DNA of 64,000 nt. Origin: a virus. Position numbers and translations under genes: made by a program. A model generated the notes under the pieces. The model searched no databases, had not been told where the DNA came from, and saw only the letters and a list, made by a program, of their open reading frames with translations. The stretch is taken from IMG/VR virus record IMGVR_UViG_3300018080_000100. One strand, given 5' to 3'. Positions 1 to 59,786 of the stretch are shown one piece after another (position 1 is the first letter of the stretch; each line of letters starts with the position of its first letter).

Positions 1-1539
1 CGTCTCGTTGTCCGTGTACACGGCGAAGACATCCACTGGAATCTTCTTCTCCAGGGCGTACTTCATAGGCAACGCACAGTCGGTGCTACCCATCGTGTGC
101 GCGAACATCGTGTCAACGACGACATCCAAAGGCGTGTCCGCAGATAGCGGAGCAACCTTTCTATGGCGATCGCGACCGTACGCGTAGCGATTCGTAGCCG
201 TGCCGCCCTTGCACAGGTCGACAAACGTGTCGGCGAAGCCGTGGCAGTACCACCGCTGCTCCGTACGCATCGTCACCATGGCCATGGCGCCTGCCGCTTG
301 CGCGCAGGTGAGCAACGTGCCAGCGCATGAGCTACTCATCGACCCGCTGACGTCCAGTCCGAGAAGCCAACGCTTACCCGTCGGCTCCACGTTCTTGAAC
401 GACAGGTCAAACGCTTTGTCGAGCGCTGTCCCGACCTGAGGCACGGGGCTCCAGGTCAGTTTCCCTCTCACGCCGTGACCCGCCTTGTACGTGGTTAGGG
501 CCAGCAAGACCGAGACAGGATGGACGCGCGCCTTCTGGATGAGTTCCTGATTGAGCAAGCGTTCGCAGACAGTCTGCGCCGCGTTGCTCATCGGCCCGAT
601 GAGGCCGATGTTGGTCATCTTGCCGAGGTTGCGCACCATTGCGCCCATCGGCATCTTGTGCAGCAACGCCTCCCAGACCTTGGGAGAGTTCAGGAACTGG
701 GTCGGAATGCACTCGCGGACGAGATCGTACTCCTCGATGAGTTTGACGATCTCGTCTGGCGACGTGGCGCGCTTCGCATGCGTTACGGCCGCAAGCAGTT
801 GCCGGTGGGGTTTCTCGTCTGTCAGCCAGTTGCTGAACCCAGCGCCAGCGCGGACCGTCTCGTACAACCGCGTGCGATCACCGAGGTCGAAGTCTGCGGG
901 CTTGTCGTCCAGATTCACCAGCTTACCGATCGAGTACGAGATGACTTCACGAAGATCGGGATCGTTCGTGGTGGCGTGCGAGCGCCGGAGCGCATCAGCG
1001 TGCGTTTCGCCCTCGCGCTGCTGATACTTAGTCACCTGGTACGCAAGCGCGCGTGCGTCCTTCTGCAGGTACCACGCGGCCACGGCGTCTCGAAGCGTAC
1101 GCCCCCAGCCTCGAAACTCCTCCACGTCGGCAAGGAAGGCGAACAACTGCGTGCCCGTTCGGCATACCTTCGGTATGGCCGCTAGCGCACACTTGCGTAC
1201 TTCCTTGTCTTTGTGCCCGGACAGGTATGCCAGGCTGAACGTGATCGGCGCGATCTTTGGCGCAAGTCCCGATACGCTCATGGCGGTGATGATGCTGACC
1301 AGCTTTTCGTGGTCTTCGGCGGCGCATTCATCGATCACCTTGACGTTGTCTCGTGTGAGTTTCTGTTCCTTGATGTAGTACGTGCCGCCTTCGGCACCAA
1401 GAACCAGAAAACGGTCAAGCCGATCCCACTTGTCAGCCTGGAAGCTGAATCCACCAGCGGAATTCTTGACTTGTCTCTCGTCGGCCTGCACGGTTTGTGG
1501 TGTGTTCCGACGACTGGTGTGTTGAGCGTATTTGCTCAT
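1..1539 (-). CDS. rsr: Ro60/TROVE-domain protein with C-terminal vWA domain (Rsr-like); C-terminus runs off the window
   Basis: The supplied track missed it because there is no stop in the window. Reverse-complement translation from ATG at 1539 (RBS AAGGAGGG) gives MSKYAQHTSRRNTPQTVQADERQVKNSAGGFSFQADKWDRLDRFLVLGAEGGT, a typical TROVE N-terminus. YKAGHGVRGKLTWSPVP lies around 440-490. The vWA MIDAS motif GLDVSGSMSS lies around 330-360. Confidence 0.8.
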   Translation of the reverse strand, partial: MSKYAQHTSRRNTPQTVQADERQVKNSAGGFSFQADKWDRLDRFLVLGAEGGTYYIKEQKLTRDNVKVIDECAAEDHEKLVSIITAMSVSGLAPKIAPITFSLAYLSGHKDKEVRKCALAAIPKVCRTGTQLFAFLADVEEFRGWGRTLRDAVAAWYLQKDARALAYQVTKYQQREGETHADALRRSHATTNDPDLREVISYSIGKLVNLDDKPADFDLGDRTRLYETVRAGAGFSNWLTDEKPHRQLLAAVTHAKRATSPDEIVKLIEEYDLVRECIPTQFLNSPKVWEALLHKMPMGAMVRNLGKMTNIGLIGPMSNAAQTVCERLLNQELIQKARVHPVSVLLALTTYKAGHGVRGKLTWSPVPQVGTALDKAFDLSFKNVEPTGKRWLLGLDVSGSMSSSCAGTLLTCAQAAGAMAMVTMRTEQRWYCHGFADTFVDLCKGGTATNRYAYGRDRHRKVAPLSADTPLDVVVDTMFAHTMGSTDCALPMKYALEKKIPVDVFAVYTDNET

Positions 1540-1585
1540 ACTCTGACCCTCCTTGAGGATGTGTTTCAGCGCAGTCGTTGCGCCG

Positions 1586-1625
1586 TAAAGAAAAACAGGG
1601 CTCCTGGCGGGCGCCAGGAGCCCTG
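1586..1625 (-). terminator. rho-independent terminator downstream of the 1630..1833 gene
   Basis: Perfect 13-bp stem CAGGGCTCCTGGCG/CGCCAGGAGCCCTG at 1596-1625, followed on the minus strand by TTTTTCTTTAC. Confidence 0.6.
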
Positions 1626-1629
1626 TACG

Positions 1630-1833
1630 CTACTCCGAGATCATGCCAACGACGTCGGCGAGGCTGTTCGCAAAGAACAACTCCGCCTGTGTCGCGCACT
1701 CTCCTTTGCAGGTCCATTGCCCTTCGCGCGTCGCCACTGACTTGTTGTTATCTGCAGGAATAGGGGCCTGGCAGATGAAACAGCGGGTCATAAGCGTGCC
1801 GGCGGGCGTGATAGTCGCTTCAGTGATGGGCAT
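1630..1833 (-). CDS. small zinc-ribbon-like protein (CxxC...CxxxC); may instead start at the internal Met, 1630..1791
   Basis: The ORF has RCFICQ and CKGEC cysteine pairs. An ATGA overlap with the upstream gene stop at 1788-1791 suggests translational coupling from the internal Met. Confidence 0.35.
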   Translation of the reverse strand: MPITEATITPAGTLMTRCFICQAPIPADNNKSVATREGQWTCKGECATQAELFFANSLADVVGMISE

Positions 1834-2102
1834 TTCTCACTCCGCGGAAACGGACAGGTGAAAGAGGAAAATTCGTGCATTACCAACTCCAGGAATGCTG
1901 CGATGACAGCGAGCTGTTTACCTGGGACCTCAGCGAGGTCGGGGTGGTCTGGCCATACGCCATTGACGTGCATCGCATTACACATTGCGCAGTGTGCCTT
2001 GTCCGTCCGTTCTTCAAACGCAGCACACTCAAGAGTACAACTAGGGAACTCACCGCAATGCCACCCGTACATGGAGCCGATAAACCTGGTACGATCCGAC
2101 AT
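1788..2102 (-). CDS. small Cys/His-rich (zinc-finger-like) protein
   Basis: Start ATG at 2102 (MSDRTRF) is preceded by GGAGGT. Contains HCGEFPSCTLEC...HCAMC. Confidence 0.35.
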   Translation of the reverse strand: MSDRTRFIGSMYGWHCGEFPSCTLECAAFEERTDKAHCAMCNAMHVNGVWPDHPDLAEVPGKQLAVIAAFLELVMHEFSSFTCPFPRSEKCPSLKRLSRPPARL

Positions 2103-2210
2103 AGCTACCTCCATGCTTATCGGAATGATTGTCCCCGACCCGGAGGCCGGGAATGCCGCGGGTCTAAACGGCATCAAGTAATAATGCCAGGAAAGAAGGC
2201 GTTGTTCACA

Positions 2211-2543
2211 CTAGACAACGCGGCGCTGGACAGCCTTAGATTTGTCGCGCCATTGGATTTTCAGACCCGTGCAACCAAGACGCTCCTTGAGCGCAGCCTG
2301 TTGCTCCTCGGGCATTGCCATGATGGCCTGTTTGATCGCGGCGTAGTTGAGCGCACCCTGCGCACGCTTGCGTATCTTCGTACGCCGCCGACGGCTACCA
2401 CAGCCGCCGCAGCGCTTCGGCGGCTGCGATTTCACGGGCGCAGTCAGGCGCGGCGGGTTGGCGACGCACGGAAACTCCTTGAATGCCGGATCATCGACCA
2501 TGCGATCGATCAGCTGCTGAGATACCAAGAGTATGCGCGCCAT
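2211..2543 (-). CDS. hypothetical basic protein
   Basis: 110-aa ORF with a CGGCGSRRRR stretch. No recognisable domain. Confidence 0.35.
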   Translation of the reverse strand: MARILLVSQQLIDRMVDDPAFKEFPCVANPPRLTAPVKSQPPKRCGGCGSRRRRTKIRKRAQGALNYAAIKQAIMAMPEEQQAALKERLGCTGLKIQWRDKSKAVQRRVV

Positions 2544-2550
2544 GCTGAGC

Positions 2551-2982
2551 CTACGTGGATACCGCGACGTAAGGCGCTGCAGCCTGCAGCTCCTGTCCGT
2601 CTTTGACAGTTTGCACCAGTTCGTCGACCTGCGTCTTGATCAAGTCCCAGATCGCGTTCGCAATCGTCTCGCTGTCGACCACCAGGTCGATGTAATGCAA
2701 GCGGAAGCCTGCTGGACTGGTGTCGTCCTCGGGCTCGCCGATGGGTAGTTCTTCCAGGTCGGGCCAGGAACAGACTCCAGAGAAGAAACTCTCGAGCTGG
2801 CCCTGCAAATTGAGCGGTTTCTGGTAGTAGCGGAAGATCTCGCGGTCGATTCCGCACGGTTCGGAGGCCTCGATGCGGATACGAAAGCCCACATGCGTCC
2901 CGATGACGTAGTCAACCTGGAATTGAGGCGTGAGTGTGACCCGGATATTGGCGCCACAACTGCTTGAGCTTGAGTCTGCCAT
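2551..2982 (-). CDS. hypothetical protein
   Basis: 143-aa ORF. GGAGGT RBS 7 nt upstream of ATG. Confidence 0.45.
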   Translation of the reverse strand: MADSSSSSCGANIRVTLTPQFQVDYVIGTHVGFRIRIEASEPCGIDREIFRYYQKPLNLQGQLESFFSGVCSWPDLEELPIGEPEDDTSPAGFRLHYIDLVVDSETIANAIWDLIKTQVDELVQTVKDGQELQAAAPYVAVST

Positions 2983-3025
2983 CCTGACCTCCGTGTCAAA
3001 GCGCTATTACAGCAGGCTTCCAGCA

Positions 3026-5035
3026 TTATACAGCAACTCGTCTGCCTTTCGAAACTCCTCCTGGCTTCCATCCGGGCATGCCTGTATGCAGTTCATTCAG
3101 CCCTCTGCGGCCCACGCTCGACGTGTTCACGTGTGACTTACGGTGGTTCCACGCCGCGGTGCGGTAACCTTGCTGCCACAGCTGCAGTCCGACCGTGTAA
3201 TCGCCTCCGTTGTGCCCGATATCGGGGTCTGGGATCATAGCTTCGCGCATAGCGGCTGTTTCGAGCGCCCAGAAGCCACCTGCAGCGAAGAAAACGTGCT
3301 GCGCATTGGGCGCTTCGGTCTTCTGCTTCGTCTGGAGCTGCCGGCCACGCCACCACGGGCGCTTCTTGGCCCATGCCAATTGCGCTGGATTCATGGTCCA
3401 GAAGCGCAAATCGCCGACCATGCGCGCCTTTTTCACGTATTCGTTGATGATTTTGGACGCCAGATGCGGATACCAGTCCGCATCGCGGTTCGCGATCGAG
3501 TCATCGTCGAACCAGACGATCCATTTCGTGTCGATCGGGTTGTTTTCATCCCAGAACAGCTGGCGCATGGCCGGATATTTCTTCCGGTTGTCGTCGTTCA
3601 GGATCAGCGTGTGCAGTTGACCCTCGTCGCGGAGGTCTTCGAGCCACTTTCGCGTCGACATGCACACCTGATTCGTTGCAATACGGATGTCGCGGCGCGC
3701 TGGAGACGTCGTTTTGAGGATACTGCCCAGGCAAGCGCGGTGCATATCCGGATAATCGCCGTACATCAGGATGCAAATGGTCATTTTGCCGCCAATTATC
3801 ACGTGATCGAGCACATTATCGACCGCGCGCTTCCCTCTGCCCTTTTTCGCCTTCCGTTCGCCCTGAAAAGCGTGCAAGAGCGCCGGCACATCGGCTTTCG
3901 GCGGGATTGTGACCGTCTTGGCGGCCTTTTTGCTGATGATTTGGTCCGCTGGCGCGAACAAATCGACCGAATTGGGCACCAAGACGCGCTTCGGGGGCGC
4001 TTCTGCCTTCGGAAGCACCAATTCCTTCGGTTTTCCGATCGGCGGCAGCGTGCCATCGTCGTAATAGCTCATGACAGCCTCCAAAACGTGATCGACAGTG
4101 ACCATTTTCAAGCATTCTGGGATCTTTTGGCCGTAGCCATCGTCGACAGGGCGCTTGCAGTATGATCTATGCTTGTCCTTCTGCGTATGCAGGATCTTGT
4201 TTTTCCAGCAGCCGCGGTCCTTACAGCAGTCCAACAGGCCCTGCGTGTGCAAATATCGATGCGGAACCTTCACTGATTGCGAATACGGCCCGAAATTCTC
4301 CACGCCAGCCACGTTGACGTATGCTTCCCACCACCAATGCTCTCGTCCGCCGGCCAGAACCACGCAAGGCTTATCGAAAGCGGCCGCCATGTGCATGAAA
4401 CAGGTGACCGGGCACACGATTCCCTCTGCATGGTAGACCAGCCACAGCACGTCGCGAAGGTTCGTCTTACCGACGAGGTCCATGGCGCCGTCGACAGGCG
4501 GGTTGACGTTGCCCTTATGGTTAGCGCCACAACGGACCATATGCAGGTTTTGCGCGCGCATTGCGTCAGCAAGCTGCTGCCAGCGCTGCGCGGACCACGC
4601 TTTCGTCGTGAAGTCCGACTTGTTGCCCGGTACGAGCAGCCAATAGCGCCCAGACAGCGGCGGATTCTTGTAATGCCACTCATCGAGGTGCAGATCGCCC
4701 TTCGGATGCAGGCACGGCACCGGCTGTCCGCACCGTTTCTGGAAGTCTCGGTGGAACGCCGTGACGAAATGCAGCTTCTTCCTGTTCGCCTCGGAGATGT
4801 ACTTGCCGTAGTTCAGATGAACCTGCTGCATATCACGCGGTACGTGGCCATGGTTGCCCGCGATATGCGGATTGTGGTTCCACAGCGTCTTACAATGTGT
4901 CGCCACGTGTATCTCGTACTTGCCGGGGTAGGCCAGCGAGATATCGCGCACGAGACCGGTCAGGCAAGTGATGTCGCCGGGCGCGCAGCCGTGGGTGATG
5001 ACGATAGGTTGGGCTGATTTTGATCTCATGATCAA
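3026..5035 (-). CDS. two-domain glycosyltransferase (N-terminal GT9 heptosyltransferase-like, C-terminal GT2/GT-A-like)
   Basis: The N-terminal half looks like ADP-heptose:LPS heptosyltransferase, with a C-terminal G-rich nucleotide-sugar pocket (VVLAGGREHWWWEAY). The C-terminal half has GT-A hallmarks (ILMYGDY...WIVWFDDDS, DxD-like DDD). Annotated start is TTG; ATG at 5029 (MRSKS) lies inside the palindromic element. Confidence 0.6.
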   Translation of the reverse strand: MIMRSKSAQPIVITHGCAPGDITCLTGLVRDISLAYPGKYEIHVATHCKTLWNHNPHIAGNHGHVPRDMQQVHLNYGKYISEANRKKLHFVTAFHRDFQKRCGQPVPCLHPKGDLHLDEWHYKNPPLSGRYWLLVPGNKSDFTTKAWSAQRWQQLADAMRAQNLHMVRCGANHKGNVNPPVDGAMDLVGKTNLRDVLWLVYHAEGIVCPVTCFMHMAAAFDKPCVVLAGGREHWWWEAYVNVAGVENFGPYSQSVKVPHRYLHTQGLLDCCKDRGCWKNKILHTQKDKHRSYCKRPVDDGYGQKIPECLKMVTVDHVLEAVMSYYDDGTLPPIGKPKELVLPKAEAPPKRVLVPNSVDLFAPADQIISKKAAKTVTIPPKADVPALLHAFQGERKAKKGRGKRAVDNVLDHVIIGGKMTICILMYGDYPDMHRACLGSILKTTSPARRDIRIATNQVCMSTRKWLEDLRDEGQLHTLILNDDNRKKYPAMRQLFWDENNPIDTKWIVWFDDDSIANRDADWYPHLASKIINEYVKKARMVGDLRFWTMNPAQLAWAKKRPWWRGRQLQTKQKTEAPNAQHVFFAAGGFWALETAAMREAMIPDPDIGHNGGDYTVGLQLWQQGYRTAAWNHRKSHVNTSSVGRRGLNELHTGMPGWKPGGVSKGRRVAV

Positions 5036-5039
5036 ATTT
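5017..5039. promoter_or_regulatory. copy 1 of a 23-bp imperfect palindromic element (ATTTTGATCTCATGATCAAATTT)
   Basis: Arms ATTTGATC/GATCAAAT around ATGA. Overlaps the stop of the 5039 gene and the start of the glycosyltransferase gene. Confidence 0.5.
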
Positions 5040-6133
5040 TACCACTTCCATTTCGGACAGTGCTCTGTCGCTACGCGGATCTTGTTGCGAATCGGGTTGT
5101 CTGGCTCGTAGCCGTCGAGCAGCTCCTCCAGCCGTTCTTCGTCACCGCGTAGTCCGCTGCAGCACTCGGCCGTGCACCGGGCGTCTTTCAAGTGCTCGCA
5201 GCACATGCAGAGCTTGTCGTAGATCAGCTCCACGGTCGCCTGGTCGCGCACGGCGTTGTGCTTGTTGTGCCACTGCTGCAAGCCGCGCGCATACCTGTGT
5301 GACTGTCGCGGCGACGGGTCGCCCGCACGCTGCAGCCGTGCCGGGCCGTGCCTCGGGAACTCGATACGCGGCATGTAATACGGCAGCGGATCCGACAATT
5401 CGACGCTGGGGTCCCACATAGGCAGCCGTATATCCAAGATACGCGCAGCCTCTGACAATTTCCTCTGCGTGACCTCTTCGCTATCCACGGTCAGCTGGTT
5501 CAAATGCAGCCACACGGGCTCGCACCACTCAAAACCGTGCTCAGCTGGTTCCTGCAACAGCTCGAAGTACGGCACGCGTTGTGGCTTGAGCATGATGCTG
5601 TGGGCCTCGTATGCTTTGCAGCTGAGCCTCCCGCGAATCTTTGCGTTGTGAAGGTGCGCCTCCTGTATCTCCTCGGCCTCTGAGTCGTAGCACAGCCATG
5701 TTGGCCAGAACTGCAGTCCGCGCTCGTCAGTCCATCCACGCCCGGCGAACTGGTACCCGTCTAGGAGCGCAGGCGCATTGACGATGCGCGCTGGCATCAC
5801 GTCGCCCTGCAATACAATGACGAAACGCTCTGGTTGGGCCAGTGCGTGGCGGCGCGCCTCGTCGACAATGGCGTGCAGCCGCCGCACCAGCATCAGGCCG
5901 CCGAATGACTCATCTATCTCGAGCAGTTCGACGCCGAGCGCCTTTGCCTGGTCTTCCATCAGGCAGCGATTGCCGGCTGAGAATGCCGGATCTGCGCCAA
6001 ACGGTCCCTGTACGACGACGATTCTGGAAAGCTGGTCGACATTCCTCCGCAGGGCGTCTATTTGCGCTGGAAGCATACGGAAGTTGTGCGACACCAAAGT
6101 GTAAACGATAGTGCTCATGCTACGGCGTAACAA
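5039..6133 (-). CDS. hypothetical protein, possibly glycan-modification associated
   Basis: 364-aa ORF directly upstream of the glycosyltransferase. No clear motif. Confidence 0.45.
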   Translation of the reverse strand: MLRRSMSTIVYTLVSHNFRMLPAQIDALRRNVDQLSRIVVVQGPFGADPAFSAGNRCLMEDQAKALGVELLEIDESFGGLMLVRRLHAIVDEARRHALAQPERFVIVLQGDVMPARIVNAPALLDGYQFAGRGWTDERGLQFWPTWLCYDSEAEEIQEAHLHNAKIRGRLSCKAYEAHSIMLKPQRVPYFELLQEPAEHGFEWCEPVWLHLNQLTVDSEEVTQRKLSEAARILDIRLPMWDPSVELSDPLPYYMPRIEFPRHGPARLQRAGDPSPRQSHRYARGLQQWHNKHNAVRDQATVELIYDKLCMCCEHLKDARCTAECCSGLRGDEERLEELLDGYEPDNPIRNKIRVATEHCPKWKW

Positions 6134-8282
6134 TCGGTGTACATTGTGTCGTCACGGTCGGGATTTGTCCTGTCGGATCGCATCCCTCGTTGACGATGTT
6201 CATGGTCCATGTGATTTCTGGCGGACAATCAGTGCTCTCCACAGGATCACTGACCCACGTCGGGTTGTAGTAATACTGGTTGGGAAACGTTTTCTTACAG
6301 CTGATGCCGCCAACAGAAGCATACCATACTCCGCACCGACATTCGATGATGAGCCACGCCTGCAAGCAATCGCCGCTGCCAGGTACCCAGCTATGGTAGT
6401 AATAGCACGTCTCGCTATCCGGGTTGGTCAGCGCGACATTGGTGAACGTGCCGTTCACGGCTGCGCACCAGCCCGACAGCCCGCTGATAGTGACCGTCAG
6501 CGGGTCACAGCAGGATGCACAGCTGCATTCGTGGCAGCAGCTGAGCGTGAACGTGCCGGTTGCAGAACCGCGCGTGTTCCACGTCAAGGTCGGGTCGTCC
6601 GGCCAATACAGCGAGCTGCTTAGGTCGTCGGAGTGGAACCCGTCGGTCGAGTCTGAGCAGTCAGCGTTCTTCGTAAACGACCAGCGACCCCAGCCTGCCG
6701 CGTAGTCAGTGTAGCAGAGGTACCAATCGCCGTAGCACTGCTTGTAGCGCGGCATACCGTCGTGGAAGCCGTCGATTGTATAGTTGCCAGAGATGTCAGG
6801 ATCACAGCCAGGCGCATCGCACGTCAGCGCATACCCGCCAGCGCCGCAGCTACAGGACCGCGACGACACAGACGACGATGACGACTTCTCGCACTGGCAG
6901 AACCAGATAATCTCGCCGTAGAAGCGCCCAGTGATGCACGGAGGGCCATGATGATCGTCGCCACCGTAGTGGACCCACTCACCATCGCTGGCATCCACTT
7001 CGCCGGGAACGTACGGACACGTGTCGTCGCCCCACTCTTGCTCGCAGTTGGGTGGCTCCATGTCGCGCTCGCACTGGCACCATACCCACGCGCTGCAGCT
7101 GTCCGACATCATGCACGCCTCGCCGGTAGCTATGCCGCCGTCATCAAGATCCTGGTCGAGCACTTGGTTCCAAGGCGGATCGTCGTACAGTACCAAGTCC
7201 CACCAGTACAACGGCACGTTCGGCATCGAACAGCTGCTGTTGGAGATCTCACTGAACGACGACTCGGAGATGTCCGAGAAGCTGGAGTACGAGCCACAGC
7301 AATGCCCGGTCATGATGGTCTCGCCGTAGAAGCGCCCCTGGACAGGCGGCGGACCCAGCTCGATACAACCTCCACGGAAAACCCACTCACCGTCTCCAAT
7401 AGCGCCCTGCTGGCAGTTCGTACCGTCGTCCGGACAGCACGGCAACACCTCGACGACGCCCGATGCACCATTCAAGAGTATGGTGTACTCGCCGATCGGG
7501 CAGTCTGGGTACGCGTCGGCAAGTAACCATGCCTCAGCGGATGCGTCGCCCTTCGTGGATGAGATCAGCCACTCGTCGGGGTCGCCGTCTTCGCCTTCGG
7601 CAAACCAGATCCACCAACTACCGTTCGTGAATGCGGGTTTGTCGCCGTACGTGCCGCTCTCGTTGTACGTACCAAGCGCTGCTGCTGGTGTGGCACCTGG
7701 ACCGAATACGCGCACGCAGTCCTGCAAGCCCGGATACGACAGCGAACCGTCCGAGCACGGGCACCAGGTCCACACACCGCGCGCGCCCTCGCCACACGGT
7801 TCGTCAGGGAAGATGAGCTGCGGCACATAGCCACCCAGATCGAAGTCGCCGTACGGGATCTCCCATGGATGCGGTTGGCCCTCAGGAAAGTCATCGCCGC
7901 ATGAGCCTTCGCCTGGCTGTGGATTCAACGACCACGACGTGTCGCCGCCTTCGCTGCCGTACTCCTGTTCGTCAGGGCACCGGCAGATGATCGAGACCTC
8001 TCCGTAGAAGCGCCCCTCGAAGCACGGTGGGCCTAGGCAGCCGTCGCCGCAGCGCAGATACCAGCCACCTTCGCCAGCGCACGAAGGCTGACAGATGTCG
8101 TCCATCGAACAGGATAGCTCATCGCCTGTACGCTCGCAGTAGTCCCACTCCTGATAGGGCGAACAGCGACACCACACCCAGATAGAGCATTCCGCATTCG
8201 GCATGCTGGTGCTGAATCTTCCATCGGGCTGTTCGAGAATCCAATCAAACGTCGGCATCGAACACGATTTTGGCGCTGCCAT
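6120..8282 (-). CDS. cysteine-rich protein with threefold internal repeat (virion or secreted protein candidate)
   Basis: About 70 Cys in 720 aa. Module GPPC..GRFYGE(I/V)I..C.C occurs three times. The module CSMP...W(V/I)WC(R/Q)C occurs twice. The coding repeat CGCCGTAGAAGCGCCC occurs three times at DNA level (about 6905, 7325, 8005). Confidence 0.6.
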   Translation of the reverse strand: MAAPKSCSMPTFDWILEQPDGRFSTSMPNAECSIWVWCRCSPYQEWDYCERTGDELSCSMDDICQPSCAGEGGWYLRCGDGCLGPPCFEGRFYGEVSIICRCPDEQEYGSEGGDTSWSLNPQPGEGSCGDDFPEGQPHPWEIPYGDFDLGGYVPQLIFPDEPCGEGARGVWTWCPCSDGSLSYPGLQDCVRVFGPGATPAAALGTYNESGTYGDKPAFTNGSWWIWFAEGEDGDPDEWLISSTKGDASAEAWLLADAYPDCPIGEYTILLNGASGVVEVLPCCPDDGTNCQQGAIGDGEWVFRGGCIELGPPPVQGRFYGETIMTGHCCGSYSSFSDISESSFSEISNSSCSMPNVPLYWWDLVLYDDPPWNQVLDQDLDDGGIATGEACMMSDSCSAWVWCQCERDMEPPNCEQEWGDDTCPYVPGEVDASDGEWVHYGGDDHHGPPCITGRFYGEIIWFCQCEKSSSSSVSSRSCSCGAGGYALTCDAPGCDPDISGNYTIDGFHDGMPRYKQCYGDWYLCYTDYAAGWGRWSFTKNADCSDSTDGFHSDDLSSSLYWPDDPTLTWNTRGSATGTFTLSCCHECSCASCCDPLTVTISGLSGWCAAVNGTFTNVALTNPDSETCYYYHSWVPGSGDCLQAWLIIECRCGVWYASVGGISCKKTFPNQYYYNPTWVSDPVESTDCPPEITWTMNIVNEGCDPTGQIPTVTTQCTPIVTP

Positions 8283-8288
8283 CAGCCG

Positions 8289-8672
8289 CTACTCCTTGCG
8301 GACTTTCAGAAATTCCTTTAGCTGCCCGACGGACATACTTCCAACATGATACTTGTATTGCCACTTGCCGTCGACTTTCCAGAACAGAAACAGCTGAGGT
8401 ATCGAGCGCGTCTTTGCCAACTTGGCAGCCTTTGCTGCTGCTTTGGGCTGCTTGTCCACGTCAAATCGGATGTAGCGAACATGATTCAGTCCACCTGCCT
8501 TGCGCACCGCGGGGATGACCTCGTTCTTCATCTCCCTGCACGGCGGACAGCCCTCAGAACCCATTACGATGAATCGCGGCTTCTCTTCCTGCGGCGGATT
8601 GGCGACAGCCATCGCGATGTTGACTGCGTACAGCAAGCCGACGATCGCCAGCAGGTTGTAGATGGTGCGCAT
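8289..8672 (-). CDS. thioredoxin-fold thiol-disulfide oxidoreductase with N-terminal signal/anchor
   Basis: Hydrophobic N-terminus LLAIVGLLYAVNIAMAVA, then a CPPC active-site motif in thioredoxin-like context. Confidence 0.7.
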   Translation of the reverse strand: MRTIYNLLAIVGLLYAVNIAMAVANPPQEEKPRFIVMGSEGCPPCREMKNEVIPAVRKAGGLNHVRYIRFDVDKQPKAAAKAAKLAKTRSIPQLFLFWKVDGKWQYKYHVGSMSVGQLKEFLKVRKE

Positions 8673-8686
8673 AGTTCCCTCCTTGG

Positions 8687-9688
8687 TTACAGCGCTGCGA
8701 AGACTACCCCCGTCTGGGGTGGCAGCACGCGGCTGATCAGTCCGACTTCCGTGTCGGTGATTTTGGTCATGTCAGTCTGGATGAGGATGGCGCTATTCAT
8801 CGTCAGATCCCCCACAGGAACTGGAACGCTCAGGTCACCACCCATTCCGGCGGGTACGAACACTTCTGTGACTCCGGCCGGCAATGCGTTGGCCCGAAAC
8901 TCGCTGATTTTGAAGGCTTCCACAAGCGGTGTGCCAGCACGGGGCTGAGAGCCCTCAGGAGGCCCCAGAATCGCGTCCTGGGCGATGCGGTAAATGTTAC
9001 GCGTCGTCGCCAGGAAGCGCCCCCTGCGGTCTGTGGCGTCGCTGAGAACCGTCTCTAGGCCATCAGCCACGGGCACATCCAGGATTGCGGCCAAAAGCGC
9101 CTCCAGGCTAGCAATCGTGGTGCCCTGGACGTTGCAGTCCATGATAGCATTGATGGTGTCCTTGTAGCGCTGGCTGGTCTCGCCCTTGAGGCCGAGGATG
9201 TAGCCGAAGTGCTTGTAGACGTACTCTCGATCGAACTGGCCGCCAAAGCCCCATAGGAAGACTGTATCCCCCATCTGCGGGATCCGCGGATCCGAGAACG
9301 GATCCTCCTCGAACGTGATGGCGATGTCGCTGACCGTATAGTCGATACCTTCGTGGAGCACGCAGGTCGCCGCGGTCATCCTGTTAGAAAGCAGCGGCAA
9401 ACCTACCAATCCCTCCGGTTTCGGGAAGGAGAGTCCGGACTGGTCTTCTCGGGACAGCTCCAGCAGCGTCCAGCGCTCAGTATGGTAGAGCGGGACAGTG
9501 AGCCGGCTGACGCAGGCGACGACCTCGTGCAGGTTCTGGTGCTGCTGCCGCACCAGCTCGAGATTGGCCTGCGCCATGGCTGCGAGCGGAGCGCTTCCAC
9601 CGTAGTAGTCCGTCCACAAAGACCCTAGCAGCCCTAAAACTGCATCTGGAGTCGGTAGGTCGAGCGTGTTGGCTAGGTGGTGTGGCAT
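8687..9688 (-). CDS. hypothetical baseplate/tail-fibre-associated protein
   Basis: 333-aa ORF immediately downstream of the J-like baseplate gene, by position only. Confidence 0.4.
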   Translation of the reverse strand: MPHHLANTLDLPTPDAVLGLLGSLWTDYYGGSAPLAAMAQANLELVRQQHQNLHEVVACVSRLTVPLYHTERWTLLELSREDQSGLSFPKPEGLVGLPLLSNRMTAATCVLHEGIDYTVSDIAITFEEDPFSDPRIPQMGDTVFLWGFGGQFDREYVYKHFGYILGLKGETSQRYKDTINAIMDCNVQGTTIASLEALLAAILDVPVADGLETVLSDATDRRGRFLATTRNIYRIAQDAILGPPEGSQPRAGTPLVEAFKISEFRANALPAGVTEVFVPAGMGGDLSVPVPVGDLTMNSAILIQTDMTKITDTEVGLISRVLPPQTGVVFAAL

Positions 9689-9874
9689 GCTTATGTCACT
9701 TCTGCATTATTGTCACGGTGGGGGTAAAAATAGCATTAACTGTCCGGATTCGTCGCAAACCCTACGCCTATAGGGGTTTGCGTTAGTCACGATGCGCAAT
9801 TACTGTTTAGTAACGGGTTTGGCCGGGGTCCTTATGTCAGTCCTGGGTCATGCAAAAAGCGCGGTGACTCAACA
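9689..9874. promoter_or_regulatory. AT-richer 186-bp intergenic region with hairpin and GTGAC repeats
   Basis: Hairpin GCAAACCCTA-cgcc-TAGGGGTTTGC. GTGAC(A/T)A appears three times on the coding strand. A -10-like CAATAAT lies about 21 nt before the 9688 start. Confidence 0.3.
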
Positions 9875-11374
9875 TTATGCCGATACGATGTGCACATTGC
9901 GGAGTGCGATGAACGCCGCCATGGTCTTGTCGTCAACGGTGTCTCCCTGGATCAGCACGTTAGAGACAGCTGTGGAGTCTGGCAGCGCCCGCGCGAGCGC
10001 GAACTGCTTCGGCTGTACGCCGATCGGCAGCCCGTTTATGTACGCGACGGCCGCGCGCTTGAACTCGTCTTCGTCTACCTCGGCGGTCACGTTGATCCGC
10101 ACGGTGACCAAGGCTGGCTTCACAGCTTTGATCAGCACATCGAGGCCAGGTTGACGGACTGCCGGCTTATCGACTGCAGTCTGAATCGTATCGACGTCAG
10201 GCATGACAAGCACGGTCACGATGAAGGCCTTCTTGTCGCCGACACTGAGGCCGAGCGTCTCGATCTCCTCTTTGAACGTGATTGTGGCTTCCTGGTAAGC
10301 GCTGTACAGCCCTTCGTCTACCGTCTGGACGTCCGGCACAGCGCCTGCGGTATTCATGCTGCGGACATCGTCCAGGATCGTGCAGCCGTCGGCGGTGTGT
10401 GGCAGTCCAGGCGCACGGATGTCACGGACCAGATAGAAACCAGGCGCGTCGTCGCGCGCCAGCGTGACTTCCCAGGTAGCCTCCGTTGGCGTCTTGGACA
10501 GCAACGTGGCGTTCTTGGTGATGCCGCGGCTCTTCGGGAAAGCTCGCGTGCGCACGTAGACGTCCAGCTTGCCGCCGCCAGACACGGTACCACCGCGCCG
10601 GTCTCGTAGCATTTCAGGATCACTCGCACCGATTACGGCCACATCGAGCACGTTGAATGTCAGGCTTTTGATTAGCGCCTTGACGCTCTCAGGACTGCCG
10701 AAGCCAGGCATCGCGGCGCCGGTCTGCATCTGCTGCACTAGCTCCTCGTTCGACTGCGCTACGTTGCCGCCAGCGAAGTCTTCCGTGGCGTACGCCAGCA
10801 GAACACCCGGCGGGCTCGGTACTATGGTGAGCTTGTCGAACTGCGCCAGTACGGCGTTCTCGTGGATCTCGGCGGCCATGACAGGTACTTGCACGGCGAA
10901 GTTGCCGTTGTCCAGCTCCTCCGAGCGCACATCGTATGTGCCGAGGCTGCTAGTATCAGGCGCTTTCACGCTGACCGGCCGTGTGGCGTAGAACAGTTGC
11001 CCGTTGGCGCGGAACTTCGTGCTCGTGCCAAAGTTGATGCCACTGGCTCTGTCCATTACGACGGTGACGCTACCGGCCGCCTTGGTGGACACACGCCGGG
11101 TGATGCGATAGTTGGACGCCAACGCGTCGACAGCAGTCGGAACTGCTGCGTCGGGCTCTTGGGCCAGCTCCAGCGCCGACATAGACTTGCGCAGCCGTTC
11201 GATCGCCTCCATGCTTGCGCCCTGCAAGATGGCGTGCAGTTCTGTCACCAAGTCACCGAGGACACCCCTGCGGGCATTCAAGTCCGGACACTGCTCTTCG
11301 ACCATCTGGGCGATGATGGCGTAAGCCGCATCGACGCGGTCGTCGTCAATCTCATTCAGTTCGGGCCAGTACAT
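9875..11374 (-). CDS. baseplate J-like (gp47/gp6-like) wedge protein
   Basis: 499-aa ORF. Its size and its position next to the gp25-like gene fit a baseplate J-like protein. RBS AGGAG. No exact motif match is claimed. Confidence 0.4.
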   Translation of the reverse strand: MYWPELNEIDDDRVDAAYAIIAQMVEEQCPDLNARRGVLGDLVTELHAILQGASMEAIERLRKSMSALELAQEPDAAVPTAVDALASNYRITRRVSTKAAGSVTVVMDRASGINFGTSTKFRANGQLFYATRPVSVKAPDTSSLGTYDVRSEELDNGNFAVQVPVMAAEIHENAVLAQFDKLTIVPSPPGVLLAYATEDFAGGNVAQSNEELVQQMQTGAAMPGFGSPESVKALIKSLTFNVLDVAVIGASDPEMLRDRRGGTVSGGGKLDVYVRTRAFPKSRGITKNATLLSKTPTEATWEVTLARDDAPGFYLVRDIRAPGLPHTADGCTILDDVRSMNTAGAVPDVQTVDEGLYSAYQEATITFKEEIETLGLSVGDKKAFIVTVLVMPDVDTIQTAVDKPAVRQPGLDVLIKAVKPALVTVRINVTAEVDEDEFKRAAVAYINGLPIGVQPKQFALARALPDSTAVSNVLIQGDTVDDKTMAAFIALRNVHIVSA

Positions 11375-11383
11375 CAGTAACTC

Positions 11384-11809
11384 CTATGTTGGGAGCGGCA
11401 GAATGAACTGCATCGATTCAGCCTCTGTTGTCAGCGTGATCACGAGCTGCATGACGCCTGGTTGGACGATGATGTTGTTCAGCTGTAGGCGTTTGAAGCG
11501 CTGCTCAGGCGGGTCGTCCTCTGTCTCTTCCTCCTGCATTGCCGCAGCGATATGGCGCGCGGCCGATTGGAAGTGCGCCGCCACGTCGGACTCGGTGAAC
11601 ATGTGGCCCTGCTGCCACAGCGTCATGAATGGGCACGCACGCGGCACCTCGCGGCCGAACGTGTAGCGCTGACTGCCGGTCTCGGTCAGCAGCACGCACA
11701 ATACGCGTTGCAGCACGTTGTGGATGCCGGAGGAAACACCGCCGTCATCAAACTGCGAGAGGACGAAACCCTCCTCGTCGACGCTCCAGGCTGTTATGTC
11801 TTTGCTCAT
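11384..11809 (-). CDS. gp25/GPW-like baseplate wedge protein
   Basis: About 140 aa from MSKDITAWSVDEEG. Segment SGIHNVLQRVLCVLLTETGSQRYTFGREVPRACPFMTL resembles the gp25 family. ATGA overlap with the upstream gene. Confidence 0.45.
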   Translation of the reverse strand: MSKDITAWSVDEEGFVLSQFDDGGVSSGIHNVLQRVLCVLLTETGSQRYTFGREVPRACPFMTLWQQGHMFTESDVAAHFQSAARHIAAAMQEEETEDDPPEQRFKRLQLNNIIVQPGVMQLVITLTTEAESMQFILPLPT

Positions 11810-12240
11810 GTCGTCAACATCTCCTGGATGAATGCCTCCACAGAGCCCTTGTGTACGCCGTTGGCGGCGTCTCCGTGCGCCTTGCGCCGCCCCGACAGCA
11901 ACATGCACGCGCGTGTGGGTGTGCGGTGACGCTCGCGGAACGAGCGTTCCATCATGGCCATGTAGCCGATCTCGATACTGGTACCCGCTGCGATCCTACT
12001 CTTGTTCTCACCCGCGCCTGTGAACTCGTCGATGTAATCCTGGTTCACGTCCGTACGGTCGAACGGGTCGCCCATATCGGGGATGTCCGTAGGGTCGAAC
12101 GTCCAGCCGGGTGTCTTCCCACTTGGGATCATCCACGGCCGCTGCACGGCGTTACCTTCCAGGTACGATCCGATCGACAATGAGTCGGCCGATACGTCGT
12201 CCATCAGGCTCGTAAATTGTGCGTCAACGGCAAGGGTCAT
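11806..12240 (-). CDS. hypothetical baseplate-module protein
   Basis: 144-aa ORF translationally coupled to its neighbours. Confidence 0.4.
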   Translation of the reverse strand: MTLAVDAQFTSLMDDVSADSLSIGSYLEGNAVQRPWMIPSGKTPGWTFDPTDIPDMGDPFDRTDVNQDYIDEFTGAGENKSRIAAGTSIEIGYMAMMERSFRERHRTPTRACMLLSGRRKAHGDAANGVHKGSVEAFIQEMLTT

Positions 12241-12980
12241 TAGAGCATCTCCAGGGTATCGCGCTTATCGAGCTTCTGCTGGATTTGCGCCATCCTGTGG
12301 CTGACAGCAGCCGGGCTGATCTTCAGCTGCGCCGCCACCTGGCTGGGCTTGGTTTGCGGGTGCCCGTGCATGCCCAGCACCCGCTCCATGATGAACTGGT
12401 TGGTCTCGTCTAGGTCATCATAAACTAGTTCGAGCCATACGTCAGGGCGTTCTTGCAGCGAACGTACCCGAGGGTCGTAACCTCCGCTGCCTTCGTCGCC
12501 CGGCCGGGTGATCGTGCTCTCGGCCAGGGGCCTGCCGCTACCACGGATATACTGCAGCCGCTTGAGCGACAGCCCGGTGAAGTCCGACAGCTCCTGGTCC
12601 GACGGCGGCCGGCCCAGCTTGTCTTCCAGCTCGTTGACAGCACGCTCGGAGTGCATCTGGTCCAGCGCGACCTGCTCTGGCACGCGGATGATCTGGCGAT
12701 GACTGGACGCCGTACGCCGCAAGCGCTGCAGCCGGGACATCATGTGCGACTTGAGCGGACCACGGGCTGGATCGTACGAGTGCAGGGCTTCCGCGGCCAT
12801 ACGCTTAGCCTGGGACCTGATCGTCACACTCTTGGCCGACGGGCCGGCGTACGCGCGTACGGCCATGCTGATAACCGGATCGAGCGCCTTGAGCATCTGA
12901 CCTGTGTTTGCGCGGGACGGATCGGTAGCCCAAGCCTTGTATGGCTCCTGAAAATCGGGCTCTAGCAGGTTTTTCGACAT
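12240..12980 (-). CDS. sigma-70 family RNA polymerase sigma factor (regions 2, 3 and 4 present; FliA/group 3-4 size)
   Basis: Start ATG at 12980 with AGGAGGT RBS. YDPARG, RQIIRVPEQV (region 2.4/3), LGRPPSDQELSDFTGLSLKRLQYI (region 3) and NQFIMERVLGMHGHPQTKPSQVAAQLKISPAAVSHRMAQIQQKL (region 4 HTH) align with E. coli sigma70. Confidence 0.75.
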   Translation of the reverse strand: MSKNLLEPDFQEPYKAWATDPSRANTGQMLKALDPVISMAVRAYAGPSAKSVTIRSQAKRMAAEALHSYDPARGPLKSHMMSRLQRLRRTASSHRQIIRVPEQVALDQMHSERAVNELEDKLGRPPSDQELSDFTGLSLKRLQYIRGSGRPLAESTITRPGDEGSGGYDPRVRSLQERPDVWLELVYDDLDETNQFIMERVLGMHGHPQTKPSQVAAQLKISPAAVSHRMAQIQQKLDKRDTLEML

Positions 12981-12988
12981 GATACCTC

Positions 12989-59117: not shown

Positions 59118-59786
59118 TTACTTCGTGTACTCCTCATCGCTGCCCAGCCCGTCGATCTGGTAGTGGAAGTCGATGTACTTGGCTAGCACGTCCTCCTGCG
59201 GGCCTTCGGCTGACGCGTTGCGGTAGAACCGCAGATCGAGGTTGCTGGATATTGTCTCATTGGCCGGCGGGGCAATCTCTGCGAAGGTGGCGATCTGTAG
59301 CATATCGCCCGACGTGTATGTGAAGACGCCCTGATTACCTTGTAGGGTGGCAATGGTTGTCCAGCTGCCCGGTACTGCTGCGCCGTTGTTGTACCACCGA
59401 TAGTCCGCCTTCCAGATCGGTTTGACCACGTCCGACTGGATGTAGTGGACATGCAGCCTGATCGCAGTATCCAGCTTCTTCTGGTGCTGCATCTGCATGG
59501 TCAGGTAGACTATTTCCGCCTCGTCGTCATACGGGAACAGCAGACCGTTATTGGTGAAGTCGTAGTCGGGCTTGCTGTTCTGGCCCTGCTTGTCGCGTGT
59601 AAGCGGAACGGAGAAGTCATCCCAGGCAACACCGTCATCGCCGCCGCCGAGTGTATGCAGACGGTCGGCGATGTAGCGCCAGTTCAGGTGACTGTGGTGA
59701 CCGCCGATCATATCGGGGCTCGTCCACAGTCCCTTATATAGGCTAGGCGGAATGTACTTTCCCATTTGCCTCCTCCTTGAGGTCAA
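59118..59786 (-). CDS. hypothetical protein
   Basis: 222-aa ORF. Its 3' end overlaps the 2H-PPase gene by 44 nt. Confidence 0.4.
   Translation of the reverse strand: MTSRRRQMGKYIPPSLYKGLWTSPDMIGGHHSHLNWRYIADRLHTLGGGDDGVAWDDFSVPLTRDKQGQNSKPDYDFTNNGLLFPYDDEAEIVYLTMQMQHQKKLDTAIRLHVHYIQSDVVKPIWKADYRWYNNGAAVPGSWTTIATLQGNQGVFTYTSGDMLQIATFAEIAPPANETISSNLDLRFYRNASAEGPQEDVLAKYIDFHYQIDGLGSDEEYTK

What the first reader, a model, noticed from the sequence alone, without database searches (positions are those of the whole stretch)
1..1539. Ro60/TROVE-vWA (Rsr-like) protein gene at the window edge; partner Y-RNA should be sought
A clean TROVE N-terminus, the YKxGHGxRGKLxW segment and a vWA MIDAS motif (DVSGSM) are present. 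The gene runs off the left edge of the window. In bacteria, and in some mycobacteriophages, Ro orthologues partner with adjacent structured Y RNAs, often alongside RNA ligases. This window also encodes a ligase-domain protein and a 2H phosphoesterase. Any Y-RNA gene would most likely lie just outside the window or in the 62.0-62.4 kb non-coding region.
Basis: partly seen in the sequence, partly recalled or inferred. Interest (0 to 1): 0.6.

Follow-up and report, generated by a model that had tools for sequence, protein, structure and literature searches.

The report
Phage Ro60 gene, tRNA-shaped Y RNAs
The left edge of the window holds most of a large phage's gene for Ro60, a ring-shaped RNA-binding protein; just beyond the edge the same genome carries a cluster of small RNA genes that look like Ro60's partner Y RNAs, two of them laid out like ordinary tRNA genes, which I did not find described for this RNA family.

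Summary
Confirmed. Window 1-1539 (minus strand) encodes residues 1-513 of an intact 580-residue Ro60 orthologue (TROVE plus vWA/MIDAS; E about 1e-97 to human Ro60). The window matches public contigs of an approximately 226.5 kb phage-like genome without a mismatch. Ro60 in phages, including jumbo phages, is already known.

The predicted partner RNAs exist, but outside the window. A 1.27 kb gene-free stretch starts right after the Ro60 stop codon. It holds three simple Y-like hairpins and two tRNA-shaped chimeras, plus two less clear elements. The units carry GGGCCGRA (like the known Ro-binding motifs GGUCCGA and GNCGAA) and GUUAUCG (the YrlA "YUAY" motif), with helices that covary.

The chimeras are homologous to YrlA but in the opposite circular permutation. 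Their acceptor stem is open, as in a real tRNA, and the Ro-binding stem is closed by a loop. The same chimeras sit next to Ro60 genes in five related phage contigs, in other phage lineages and in two cyanobacterial contigs. Rfam's YrlA model misses them.

The 62.0-62.4 kb region holds nothing of the kind. The "ligase-domain" protein has only a sub-threshold LigD phosphoesterase-like domain. Ro binding, RNA processing and function are inferred, not shown.

The parts
1..1539 (-). Ro60/Rsr orthologue, codons 1-513 of 580. The last 67 codons and the stop lie beyond window base 1.
   Evidence: full-length ORF on identical contigs.
496..1470 (-). TROVE (HEAT-repeat ring) domain, aa 24-348.
   Evidence: Pfam PF05731, E 7.1e-40.
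1..372 (-). vWA_Ro60 domain, aa 390-513, truncated by the window edge. Carries MIDAS DVSGSM (nt 337-354), GSTDCALP (nt 67-90) and TDNET (nt 1-15).
   Evidence: Pfam PF25045, E 3.4e-26, profile positions 1-103 of 165; motif coordinates.
451..489 (-). YKAGHGVRGKLTW segment, in the block best conserved with human and Xenopus Ro60.
1547..1554 (-). Shine-Dalgarno-like AAGGAGGG, 7 nt before the ATG.
   Evidence: Direct reading.
1589..1663 (-). GC-rich hairpin plus U run (terminator-like) after the upstream 67-aa gene, about 50 nt before the Ro60 start.
   Evidence: Sequence. A weak Rfam BjrC68 similarity (E 0.009) covers only the terminator hairpin.

Best explanation
The gene encodes a phage Ro60 ring protein. 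It most likely works as a ribonucleoprotein with small RNAs encoded directly downstream, outside the window. That array (L001 12072-13090) holds two clear classes of RNA.

(a) Three simple Y-like hairpins, units B, C and E. Each has a terminal helix N-GGGC/GCCC-N' with a bulged C inside GGGCCGRA, then an upper helix, then GUUAUYG and a small apical hairpin.

(b) Two tRNA-shaped chimeras, T1 and T2. Each has a 7-bp acceptor stem with open ends, a D arm and a T arm. The Y module sits where the anticodon arm would be, closed by a 5-nt loop.

Two less clear elements, unit A and a tRNA-like without a D arm, lie upstream of these in the array.

Shown here: the protein's identity; the RNA motifs and helices and their covariation; the homology of the chimeras to YrlA in permuted order; and their recurrence next to Ro60 genes.

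Inferred: (1) transcription runs from sigma-70-like promoters to a strong terminator; (2) RNase P and RNase Z-type cleavage at the tRNA-like ends matures T1 and T2 and thereby also releases unit E, which lies between them; (3) Ro60 binds the GGGCCGRA helix on its outer surface, as in known Ro-Y RNA complexes; (4) the tRNA-like elbow or the loops recruit a second protein, either a tRNA-binding factor or host PNPase as in the RYPER complex, to reshape RNA decay or repair during infection.
For: Protein identity.

Location: a gene-free stretch of 1.27-1.95 kb follows the Ro60 gene in this genome and in five relatives with 62-88% Ro60 identity.

Motif enrichment: GGGCCGRR occurs 6 times on the sense strand of the 1270-nt gap, against 0.14 expected from the window's own frequency (P about 9e-9), and 0 times in the other 37.9 kb of L001.

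Similarity to known motifs: GGGCCGRA resembles the Ro-contacted GGUCCGA of vertebrate Y RNAs and the bacterial GNCGAA. GUUAUCG contains the conserved YrlA YUAY (PMC4201824).

Simple units: the closing pair N:N' is paired in 16 of 16 units with four pair types (AU 7, UA 4, CG 3, GC 2). The upper-helix strands match their own partner better than partners from other units: summed helix length 100, against 72.3 +/- 4.7 and a maximum of 95 in 20,000 permutations.

Chimeras: on 14 sequences, 95.9% of cells are paired, against 67.9% in shuffles (0 of 500 reach it) and 35-53% when partners are slid. All 7 acceptor pairs show compensatory changes. The Rfam tRNA model matches four of the related chimeras end to end across 130-145 nt at 37.7-51.6 bits.

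Homology to YrlA: the chimeras align to a circularly permuted mycobacteriophage ET08 YrlA with z = 4.2-12.4, and much better than to its native order (scores 70-120 against 52-66).

Association with Ro60: a model built from the chimeras finds 17 long matches (113-160 nt) at 47-94 bits, in nine loci. Eight of these carry a Ro60 gene and the ninth is a 1.9 kb fragment. The same model finds nothing in the 64 kb window or in about 45 kb more of the same genome.

Precedents: Thermus phage phiLo Ro60 binds two phage-encoded Y-like RNAs and host PNPase (PMC12135203). M. smegmatis YrlA is cut by RNase P and receives CCA (PMC4201824).
Against: There are no expression, processing or binding data. The RNA genes are not in the window itself.

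In this genome the motif is GCCGGA, not the consensus GNCGAA; relatives do have GCCGAA. The Ro-binding helix is short, 5 bp plus one bulge.

Rfam's Y_RNA model gives no match, and the best YrlA match is 15.9 bits (E 4.8).

Per-unit helix statistics are weak when taken singly (p 0.002-0.9). The upper-helix alignments were guided by the structure.

Unit A lacks a recognisable 3' strand. The second promoter is poor in this genome and good only in relatives. No PNPase, RtcB or RNA ligase was seen near the locus.
Confidence: 0.72

Rival explanations
1. T1 and T2 are real tRNA genes interrupted by a removable, intron-like insertion of about 55 nt. The insert is excised, the halves are joined, and the products decode codons for the phage. 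On this view the Y-like module is only the intron, or an intron that doubles as a Y RNA.
For: After in-silico removal of the module, ARAGORN-77 nt tRNAs. The anticodons stay stable whatever the exact cut: UGA, UCG, CAU, CAC, GUU and UUU across copies. With its intron option ARAGORN calls T2 and its relatives as intron-bearing tRNAs. The small stem-loop has a 7-nt loop of anticodon-loop form, YU-NNN-AA. No canonical tRNA was found in about 110 kb of this genome. The genome encodes a 2H/InPase RNA end-healing protein.
Against: The same small arm with a 7-nt loop (AUUGAAA) exists in ET08 YrlA, where it is the V arm of a non-decoding RNA. After excision the 'anticodon stems' are only 3-4 bp. No bulge-helix-bulge or group I features are present, and no splicing endonuclease or RNA ligase was detected. 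The insert carries the conserved Ro-type motifs and always lies beside a Ro60 gene. T2 of this genome would read UUA, a stop-codon anticodon.
Confidence: 0.13
2. The phage Ro60 acts on host or phage misfolded RNAs without dedicated partner RNAs. On this view the downstream array is a set of decaying tRNA genes, processing signals and terminators that merely sits next to the gene.
For: Ro60 proteins also bind misfolded RNAs through the central hole (established knowledge; background in PMC12135203). Cultured Ro60 phages place the gene inside ordinary tRNA arrays. Binding was not tested here.
Against: Decaying genes would not keep covarying helices or motifs shared with experimentally Ro-bound RNAs across lineages whose Ro60 proteins are only 30-67% identical.
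Confidence: 0.1
3. The repeated motifs and tRNA-like shapes are chance features of a GC-rich non-coding stretch.
For: Single short helices are not individually significant. Loose motif scans of large databases return mostly chance matches.
Against: Motif enrichment has P about 9e-9. None of 500 shuffles reaches the observed pairing or covariation. The layout is syntenic in six related genomes. The covariance model matches elements in independent Ro60 loci at E 1e-10 to 1e-22.
Confidence: 0.02

Closest known systems
YrlA (Rfam RF02553): tRNA-like Y RNA of Salmonella, M. smegmatis and mycobacteriophages such as ET08
   Same: YrlA is encoded within a few hundred nt of Ro60 on the same strand. It has a GNCGAA-type motif, the YUAY motif, a small V stem-loop with a 7-nt loop, then about 5 nt, then the T arm. 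Its D arm is of the GUAGCUCA...GAGC type, followed by N-YUAAAAC. All these segments align with the chimeras.
   Different: The order of the parts differs. YrlA runs 5' Y strand, V arm, T arm, closed acceptor-like hairpin, D arm, 3' Y strand. T1 and T2 run acceptor 5' strand, D arm, 3' Y strand, 5-nt loop, 5' Y strand, V arm, T arm, acceptor 3' strand. That is normal tRNA order, with an open 7-bp acceptor stem and a closed Ro-binding stem. Rfam YrlA scores ET08 at 37.4 bits. In this locus it scores 15.9 bits, and only by bridging two different chimeras.
YrlB of Salmonella and M. smegmatis; Yrl1 and Yrl2 of Thermus phage phiLo (simple Y-like RNAs)
   Same: These are short hairpins with a terminal stem, a CGAA-type motif in a bulged region and a variable loop. 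Several copies lie beside the Ro60 gene. Units B, C and E have this plan. ET08 and Gordonia phage Sixama carry similar GCCGA...GGTTAYC units (PMC12135203).
   Different: There are more copies here, and they are interleaved with tRNA-shaped elements so that unit E is bracketed by two predicted tRNA-processing sites. Binding is shown for phiLo, not here.
Metazoan Ro60 and Y RNA (human 9nen, Xenopus 1yvp)
   Same: The protein resembles animal Ro60 more than Deinococcus Rsr (E 1e-97 against 3e-76). The RNA motif GG(G)CCGRA with a bulged C in a helix formed with a 3' strand, followed by a pyrimidine/U run, resembles GGUCCGA plus the 3' U tail.
   Different: Animal Y RNAs have no tRNA-like domain. 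No La-type partner is implied here. Rfam Y_RNA gives no match.
D. radiodurans Yrn1 and the RYPER complex (Ro, Y RNA, PNPase)
   Same: This is the working model for function: the Y RNA tethers Ro60 to an exoribonuclease. Yrn1 also has a T arm.
   Different: In Yrn1 the Y stem occupies the acceptor position (PMC4201824). One element of that kind occurs in a relative (L019, about 8970-9110), but not in this genome. No PNPase link was tested.
Circularly permuted tRNA genes of Cyanidioschyzon and some archaea
   Same: They show that tRNA-shaped RNAs can exist in two circular permutations. They are cited in the YrlA literature as an analogy (bioRxiv 10.1101/312249).
   Different: Those are true tRNAs matured through a circular intermediate. 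Here the permuted member is the known one (YrlA), and the new elements are in the unpermuted order.

Membership tests
Ro60 / Rsr (TROVE-vWA ring protein) | TROVE HEAT-repeat domain followed by a Ro60-type vWA domain | tested here: met
   PF05731 E 7.1e-40 and PF25045 E 3.4e-26; the full-length 580-aa protein carries both domains.
Ro60 / Rsr (TROVE-vWA ring protein) | MIDAS motif DxSxS plus downstream T and D | tested here: met
   DVSGS at aa 396-400, GSTDC at aa 484-488, TDNET at aa 509-513, aligned to the human and Xenopus motifs.
Ro60 / Rsr (TROVE-vWA ring protein) | Close sequence similarity to Ro60 proteins of solved structure | tested here: met
   9nen E 2.7e-97, 1yvp E 1.1e-96, 2nvo E 2.6e-76.
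Ro60 / Rsr (TROVE-vWA ring protein) | NCBIfam equivalog RNA-bind_Rsr cut-off (900 bits) | tested here: not met
   349 bits for the 513-aa fragment. It is a Ro60 family member, but not within the curated bacterial Rsr equivalog.
Y RNA (functional definition) | Physically bound by Ro60 | not testable with these tools
   Needs immunoprecipitation or a gel-shift assay.
Y RNA (functional definition) | Encoded within about 4 kb of Ro60 on the same strand | tested here: met
   The array starts 35 nt after the stop codon, on the same strand.
Y RNA (functional definition) | Ro-binding motif (GGUCCGA or GNCGAAN0-1G) near the base of a stem formed with a distal strand | tested here: met
   GGGCCGRA pairs with (A)CNCGCCC with one bulged C. 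The closing pair covaries in 16 of 16 units. In this genome position 5 is G (GCCGGA); relatives have GCCGAA.
YrlA (RF02553) | tRNA-like domain with conserved T and D arms and the YUAY motif | tested here: met
YrlA (RF02553) | T arm lies 5' of the D arm, with a closed acceptor-like hairpin between them and the RNA ends in the Ro-binding stem | tested here: not met
   The D arm lies 5' of the T arm, and the acceptor strands sit at the two ends, about 120 nt apart. They are 7/7 complementary and covary. The Y stem is closed by UUUUA (T1) or UUACA (T2).
YrlA (RF02553) | Rfam gathering score (69 bits) | tested here: not met
   15.9 bits, E 4.8. The accepted phage YrlA of ET08 also fails the cut-off, but reaches 37.4 bits, E 1.6e-5.
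tRNA (RF00005 / ARAGORN) | Cloverleaf of 70-90 nt with a 5-bp anticodon stem and a 7-nt loop | tested here: not met
   ARAGORN in default mode finds none in the window or L001. T1 and T2 are 123-126 nt. They are called only with the intron option or after in-silico excision. The best Rfam tRNA match in this locus is 17.3 bits, below the 29-bit cut-off.

The most novel reading that the evidence does not exclude
The chimeras may represent a widespread, so far undescribed class of Ro60 partner RNAs. They would be YrlA-type tRNA mimics in the native tRNA gene order, with a free 7-bp acceptor end and the Ro-binding helix as a closed hairpin in place of the anticodon arm. Such RNAs would be matured like tRNAs by RNase P, RNase Z and CCA addition, and could perhaps be aminoacylated. 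They occur in tandem with simple Y RNAs next to Ro60 in several phage lineages and in cyanobacteria. They would be the unpermuted form implied by the proposal that YrlA arose from dimeric tRNA transcripts. In this locus the T arm of T1 and the D arm of T2 already lie in YrlA order.
Probability: 0.4. Interest if true: 0.75.

Novelty: new variant of a known kind. Interest (0 to 1): 0.6.

Why it matters
Ro60 and Y RNAs are conserved from bacteria to humans, and Ro60 is a major autoantigen. What the tRNA-like domain of bacterial Y RNAs does, and where it came from, are both open questions. YrlA has been described as a circularly permuted tRNA and proposed to derive from dimeric tRNA transcripts. 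This locus and its relatives supply the missing counterpart: Ro-motif-bearing RNAs in true tRNA order, arranged in tandem. That makes the origin model testable by comparative analysis. It also predicts Ro60 RNPs whose RNA has a real tRNA acceptor end, which could be a substrate for RNase P, the CCA-adding enzyme, synthetases or anticodon-nuclease defence systems. Practically, Rfam's YrlA model and default tRNA finders miss these genes, so Ro60 loci in phage and metagenome annotations are probably left without their RNA partners.

Tried and rejected
- Rfam on the whole window at gathering thresholds, and ARAGORN: nothing.
- Rfam at E<=1 on the 20 kb parent locus: only a terminator look-alike and a chance miRNA match.
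- Rfam at E<=10 on the array: tRNA at 17.3 bits and YrlA at 15.9 bits, both sub-threshold. The YrlA match was rejected because it joins the T arm of T1 to the D arm of T2, whose acceptor strands are not complementary.
- Scans of viral and genome collections with GGGCCGRA-N6-16-GGTTATYG were too unspecific. They did by luck bring in 14 Ro60 loci that proved useful.
- Helix statistics for single units were too weak and were replaced by a test of own partners against partners from other units.
- MAFFT/RNAalifold on the simple units recovered only the terminal helix, because the upper helix is misaligned by one column between subtypes.
- The alignment of the D-armless tRNA-like element was too ragged to count pairs.
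- A model match in the cultured Streptomyces phage Stigma looked like a chimera. On reading it is a simple unit followed by an ordinary permuted YrlA.
- The conserved promoter motif of the array (TTGAAA-N17-CATTATAG) does not recur in the window.
- Megablast of the first 6 kb of the window against cultured phages: no match.
Full report
THE OBSERVATION

The minus strand of window 1-1539 is an open frame of 513 codons. It starts at ATG 1537-1539, 7 nt after AAGGAGGG, and runs off the left edge. It matches Pfam TROVE (E 7.1e-40, aa 24-348) and the Ro60-specific vWA domain (E 3.4e-26, aa 390-513, cut at profile position 103 of 165). Among solved structures it is closest to human RO60 (9nen, E 2.7e-97) and Xenopus Ro (1yvp, E 1.1e-96), ahead of Deinococcus Rsr (2nvo, E 2.6e-76). 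It stays below NCBI's bacterial Rsr equivalog cut-off (349 against 900 bits).

WHERE THE WINDOW COMES FROM

A neighbouring 67-aa protein and a 143-aa protein are encoded on public metagenome contigs of up to 226.5 kb. Locus L001 from one of them is the exact reverse complement of window 1-11833, with 0 mismatches. The conversion is window position = 11834 minus L001 position. On these contigs the Ro60 ORF is intact at 580 aa.

Coordinates of two window genes on the same contig differ by 226,509, for a contig of 226,517 bp. This fits a circular or terminally redundant genome of about 226.5 kb. The window also encodes a cellular-type RNA polymerase beta/beta' pair. Its best cultured relative is Salmonella phage Arash, at 33% identity. 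Almost nothing else is recognisable. This is a large uncultivated phage.

Ro60 genes are already annotated in 361 cultured phage genomes, the best at about 41-43% identity. The literature records them in jumbo phages "with a tRNA-like partner" (PMC7824862). The gene itself is therefore a new member of a known kind.

THE PARTNER RNAs

The Ro60 stop codon is at L001 12035-12037. It is followed by 1270 nt without a called gene, and five relatives with 62-88% Ro60 identity have gaps of 1.4-1.95 kb at the same place.

Reading the gap shows repeated GGGCCGRA, GGUUAUYG and (A)CNCGCCC-U-rich elements, and tRNA-like arms. GGGCCGRR occurs six times on the sense strand, against 0.14 expected (P about 9e-9), and nowhere else in L001.

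These motifs correspond to published ones. GGGCCGRA corresponds to the Ro-contacted GGUCCGA of vertebrate Y RNAs and to GNCGAAN0-1G of bacterial Y RNAs. GUUAUCG contains the conserved YUAY of YrlA (PMC4201824).

LAYOUT OF THE ARRAY (L001 coordinates)

- 12072-12100: a sigma-70-like promoter, TTGAAA-17-CATTAT. Its -10 region GCATTATAGAGTG is conserved in relatives.
- 12239 to about 12350: unit A, followed by a tRNA-like element without a D arm (12359-12424).
- 12434-12463: a second promoter-like site, which is good in relatives.
- 12508-12581, 12604-12668 and 12823-12890: the simple units B, C and E.
- 12694-12817 and 12897-13023: the chimeras T1 and T2.
- 13052-13084: a 14-bp terminator followed by a U run.

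EVIDENCE THAT THE STRUCTURES ARE REAL

Simple units. In 16 units from six genomes, the pair that closes the terminal helix is always formed, with four pair types (AU 7, UA 4, CG 3, GC 2). The helix that ends at the YUAY motif has at least ten different sequences, each with its complement downstream. Each strand pairs better with its own partner than with partners from other units: summed helix length 100, against 72.3 +/- 4.7 and a maximum of 95 in 20,000 permutations.

Chimeras. RNAalifold on 14 chimeras from two phage lineages returns acceptor, D and T stems and a small stem-loop, with compensatory changes in 17 of 23 pairs. Overall 95.9% of cells are paired, against 67.9% in shuffles (0 of 500 reach it) and 35-53% with slid partners. 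All seven acceptor pairs covary. The Rfam tRNA model spans four related chimeras end to end across 130-145 nt at 37.7-51.6 bits.

WHAT THE CHIMERAS ARE

As a positive control, mycobacteriophage ET08 carries a YrlA about 190 nt upstream of its Ro60 gene. Rfam scores it at 37.4 bits (E 1.6e-5), in the published order T arm, closed acceptor-like hairpin, D arm.

Segment by segment, T1 and T2 and their relatives match it. The shared segments are the 5' motif, the upper helix, GUUAYC, a small arm with a 7-nt loop, about 5 nt and the T arm on one side; on the other side the D arm followed by N-YUAAAAC. The segments are joined the other way round. The chimeras align to a circularly permuted ET08 YrlA with z = 4.2-12.4, and clearly worse to the native order.

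The chimeras are therefore YrlA homologues in tRNA gene order, with an open acceptor stem and a closed Ro-binding stem. The only YrlA-model match in this locus (15.9 bits) bridges the T arm of T1 and the D arm of T2 across unit E. That is the dimeric arrangement from which YrlA has been proposed to derive (bioRxiv 10.1101/312249).

The literature describes two other topologies: YrlA as a circularly permuted tRNA, and Yrn1 with the Y stem at the acceptor position. I found no description of the tRNA-order form in five literature searches. Two key reviews were not available to me, so the claim of novelty rests partly on my own knowledge.

DISTRIBUTION

A structural scan and a covariance model built from the chimeras find 17 long matches (113-160 nt, 47-94 bits, E 1e-10 to 1e-22). 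They lie in other viral contigs (L011, L012, L013, L044, L051, L111, L119) and in two cyanobacterial metagenome-assembled genome contigs: L187 (Leptolyngbyaceae, four in tandem) and L209 (Cyanothece, two). Each of these loci has a Ro60 gene on the same strand beside them, except L119, a 1.9 kb fragment.

The model finds nothing in the window or in about 45 kb more of the same genome. Five cultured Ro60 phages that I sampled (ET08, Phosso, Atu_ph07, Sixama, Stigma) have simple units or ordinary YrlA but no chimera.

HOW IT LIKELY WORKS

Shown: the protein's identity, the conserved and covarying RNA architecture, its homology to RNAs that are known to bind Ro60, and its strict neighbourhood with Ro60 genes.

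Inferred:
- The array is transcribed from host-type promoters.
- T1 and T2 are matured at their acceptor ends by RNase P and RNase Z-type activities, as shown for M. smegmatis YrlA (PMC4201824). These cuts also release unit E, which lies between them.
- Ro60 binds the GGGCCGRA helix.
- The tRNA-like elbow or the loops bring in a second protein. Precedents are the Ro-Y RNA-PNPase complex of Deinococcus and the Ro60-Yrl-PNPase assemblies of Thermus phage phiLo (PMC12135203).

Speculative: a role in RNA decay, RNA repair or counter-defence. The only repair-type genes seen are a Swiss-army-knife 2H/InPase protein and a sub-threshold LigD phosphoesterase-like domain, both about 55-60 kb away.

RIVALS

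The main rival is that the chimeras are tRNA genes with a removable insert. In its favour, ARAGORN calls normal tRNAs with varied anticodons after in-silico excision. Against it, the "anticodon arm" is the V arm shared with non-decoding YrlA, the stems are 3-4 bp, no splicing machinery was seen, and the insert carries the Ro-type motifs. I give it about 0.13. Ro60 acting without these RNAs gets about 0.1. Chance gets about 0.02.

VERDICT

The gene is an ordinary member of a known phage protein family. The RNAs beside it form an unusually rich array, and the array includes a new topological variant of the YrlA class.

Noticed in passing
window 41303-43192 and 44227-48597 (minus strand): Two large proteins carry cellular-type RNA polymerase domains: 1456 aa with Rpb2_3, Rpb2_6 and Rpb1_2, and about 620 aa with Rpb1_5. 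The best cultured relatives are Salmonella phage Arash (33% identity over 97%) and 187-kb Vibrio phages.
   Followed up: partly
window 59743-61116 (minus strand): A 457-aa protein with a Swiss-army-knife 2H phosphoesterase domain (E 5e-9) and an InPase domain (E 2e-47). It is an RNA end-healing type protein, about 58 kb from the Ro60 gene.
   Followed up: partly
window 54913-58965 (minus strand): A 1350-aa protein whose only recognisable part is a LigD 3'-phosphoesterase-like stretch (aa 897-982, 30.4 bits, just under Pfam's cut-off of 31.1). No ligase domain was detected.
   Followed up: partly
window as a whole; contig k141_2629452: Positions of window genes on the 226,517-bp contig differ by 226,509 between the two ends of the window. 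The window therefore wraps around the contig ends, which fits a circular or terminally redundant genome of about 226.5 kb. Nearly all long ORFs, and every gene called on the matching contigs, are on the minus strand, and very few have Pfam matches.
   Followed up: partly
L001 12239-12424 (outside the window, 3' of the Ro60 gene): Unit A starts like a Y unit (GGGCCGGA...GGTTATCG). It then has a stem holding a conserved Shine-Dalgarno-like GGAGGAGGG plus AUG, but the ORF is not conserved (a relative reads ATG CTT TGA). A GC hairpin with a U run follows, then a tRNA-like element without a D arm. The acceptor helix of that element is complementary in all six relatives, and the element is duplicated in L016.
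   Followed up: partly
L001 12632-12648 and 12675-12691: The apical loop of unit C is 94% complementary over 17 nt to the spacer just before chimera T1. A core of at least 12 nt of each arm is conserved, with one G-U-compatible change, in three relatives. This could be an alternative long-range pairing or a protein-binding site.
   Followed up: no
L187 3999-4531 and L209 4369-4669 (cyanobacterial metagenome-assembled genome contigs): Four and two tandem tRNA-order chimeras lie directly upstream of a bacterial Ro60 gene (30% identity to the phage protein). In L187 two subtypes alternate.
   Followed up: partly
L267 (Gordonia phage Sixama) 6692 and 7110: Simple GCCGAA...GGTTATC units sit immediately after annotated tRNA genes, inside a tRNA array of more than 20 genes that follows the Ro60 gene. 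This suggests that tRNA processing sites delimit Y RNAs in cultured phages too.
   Followed up: no
L019 about 8970-9110: A Y-type stem (GAUCGGGU...ACCCGAUC) encloses a whole tRNA-like body that ARAGORN calls tRNA-Thr. The Y stem is therefore at the acceptor position, as proposed for Deinococcus Yrn1.
   Followed up: no
window about 160-222 (aa 441-462 of Ro60): The phage Ro60 has an insertion of about 22 residues (DLCKGGTATNRYAYGRDRHRKV) in the vWA domain relative to human and Xenopus Ro60, where the alignments break.
   Followed up: no
window 62037-62356: This 320-nt non-coding stretch has no Rfam match and folds no better than shuffles. It contains TTGAAA and TACACT hexamers with an overlong spacer. 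It is probably a promoter and leader region.
   Followed up: yes
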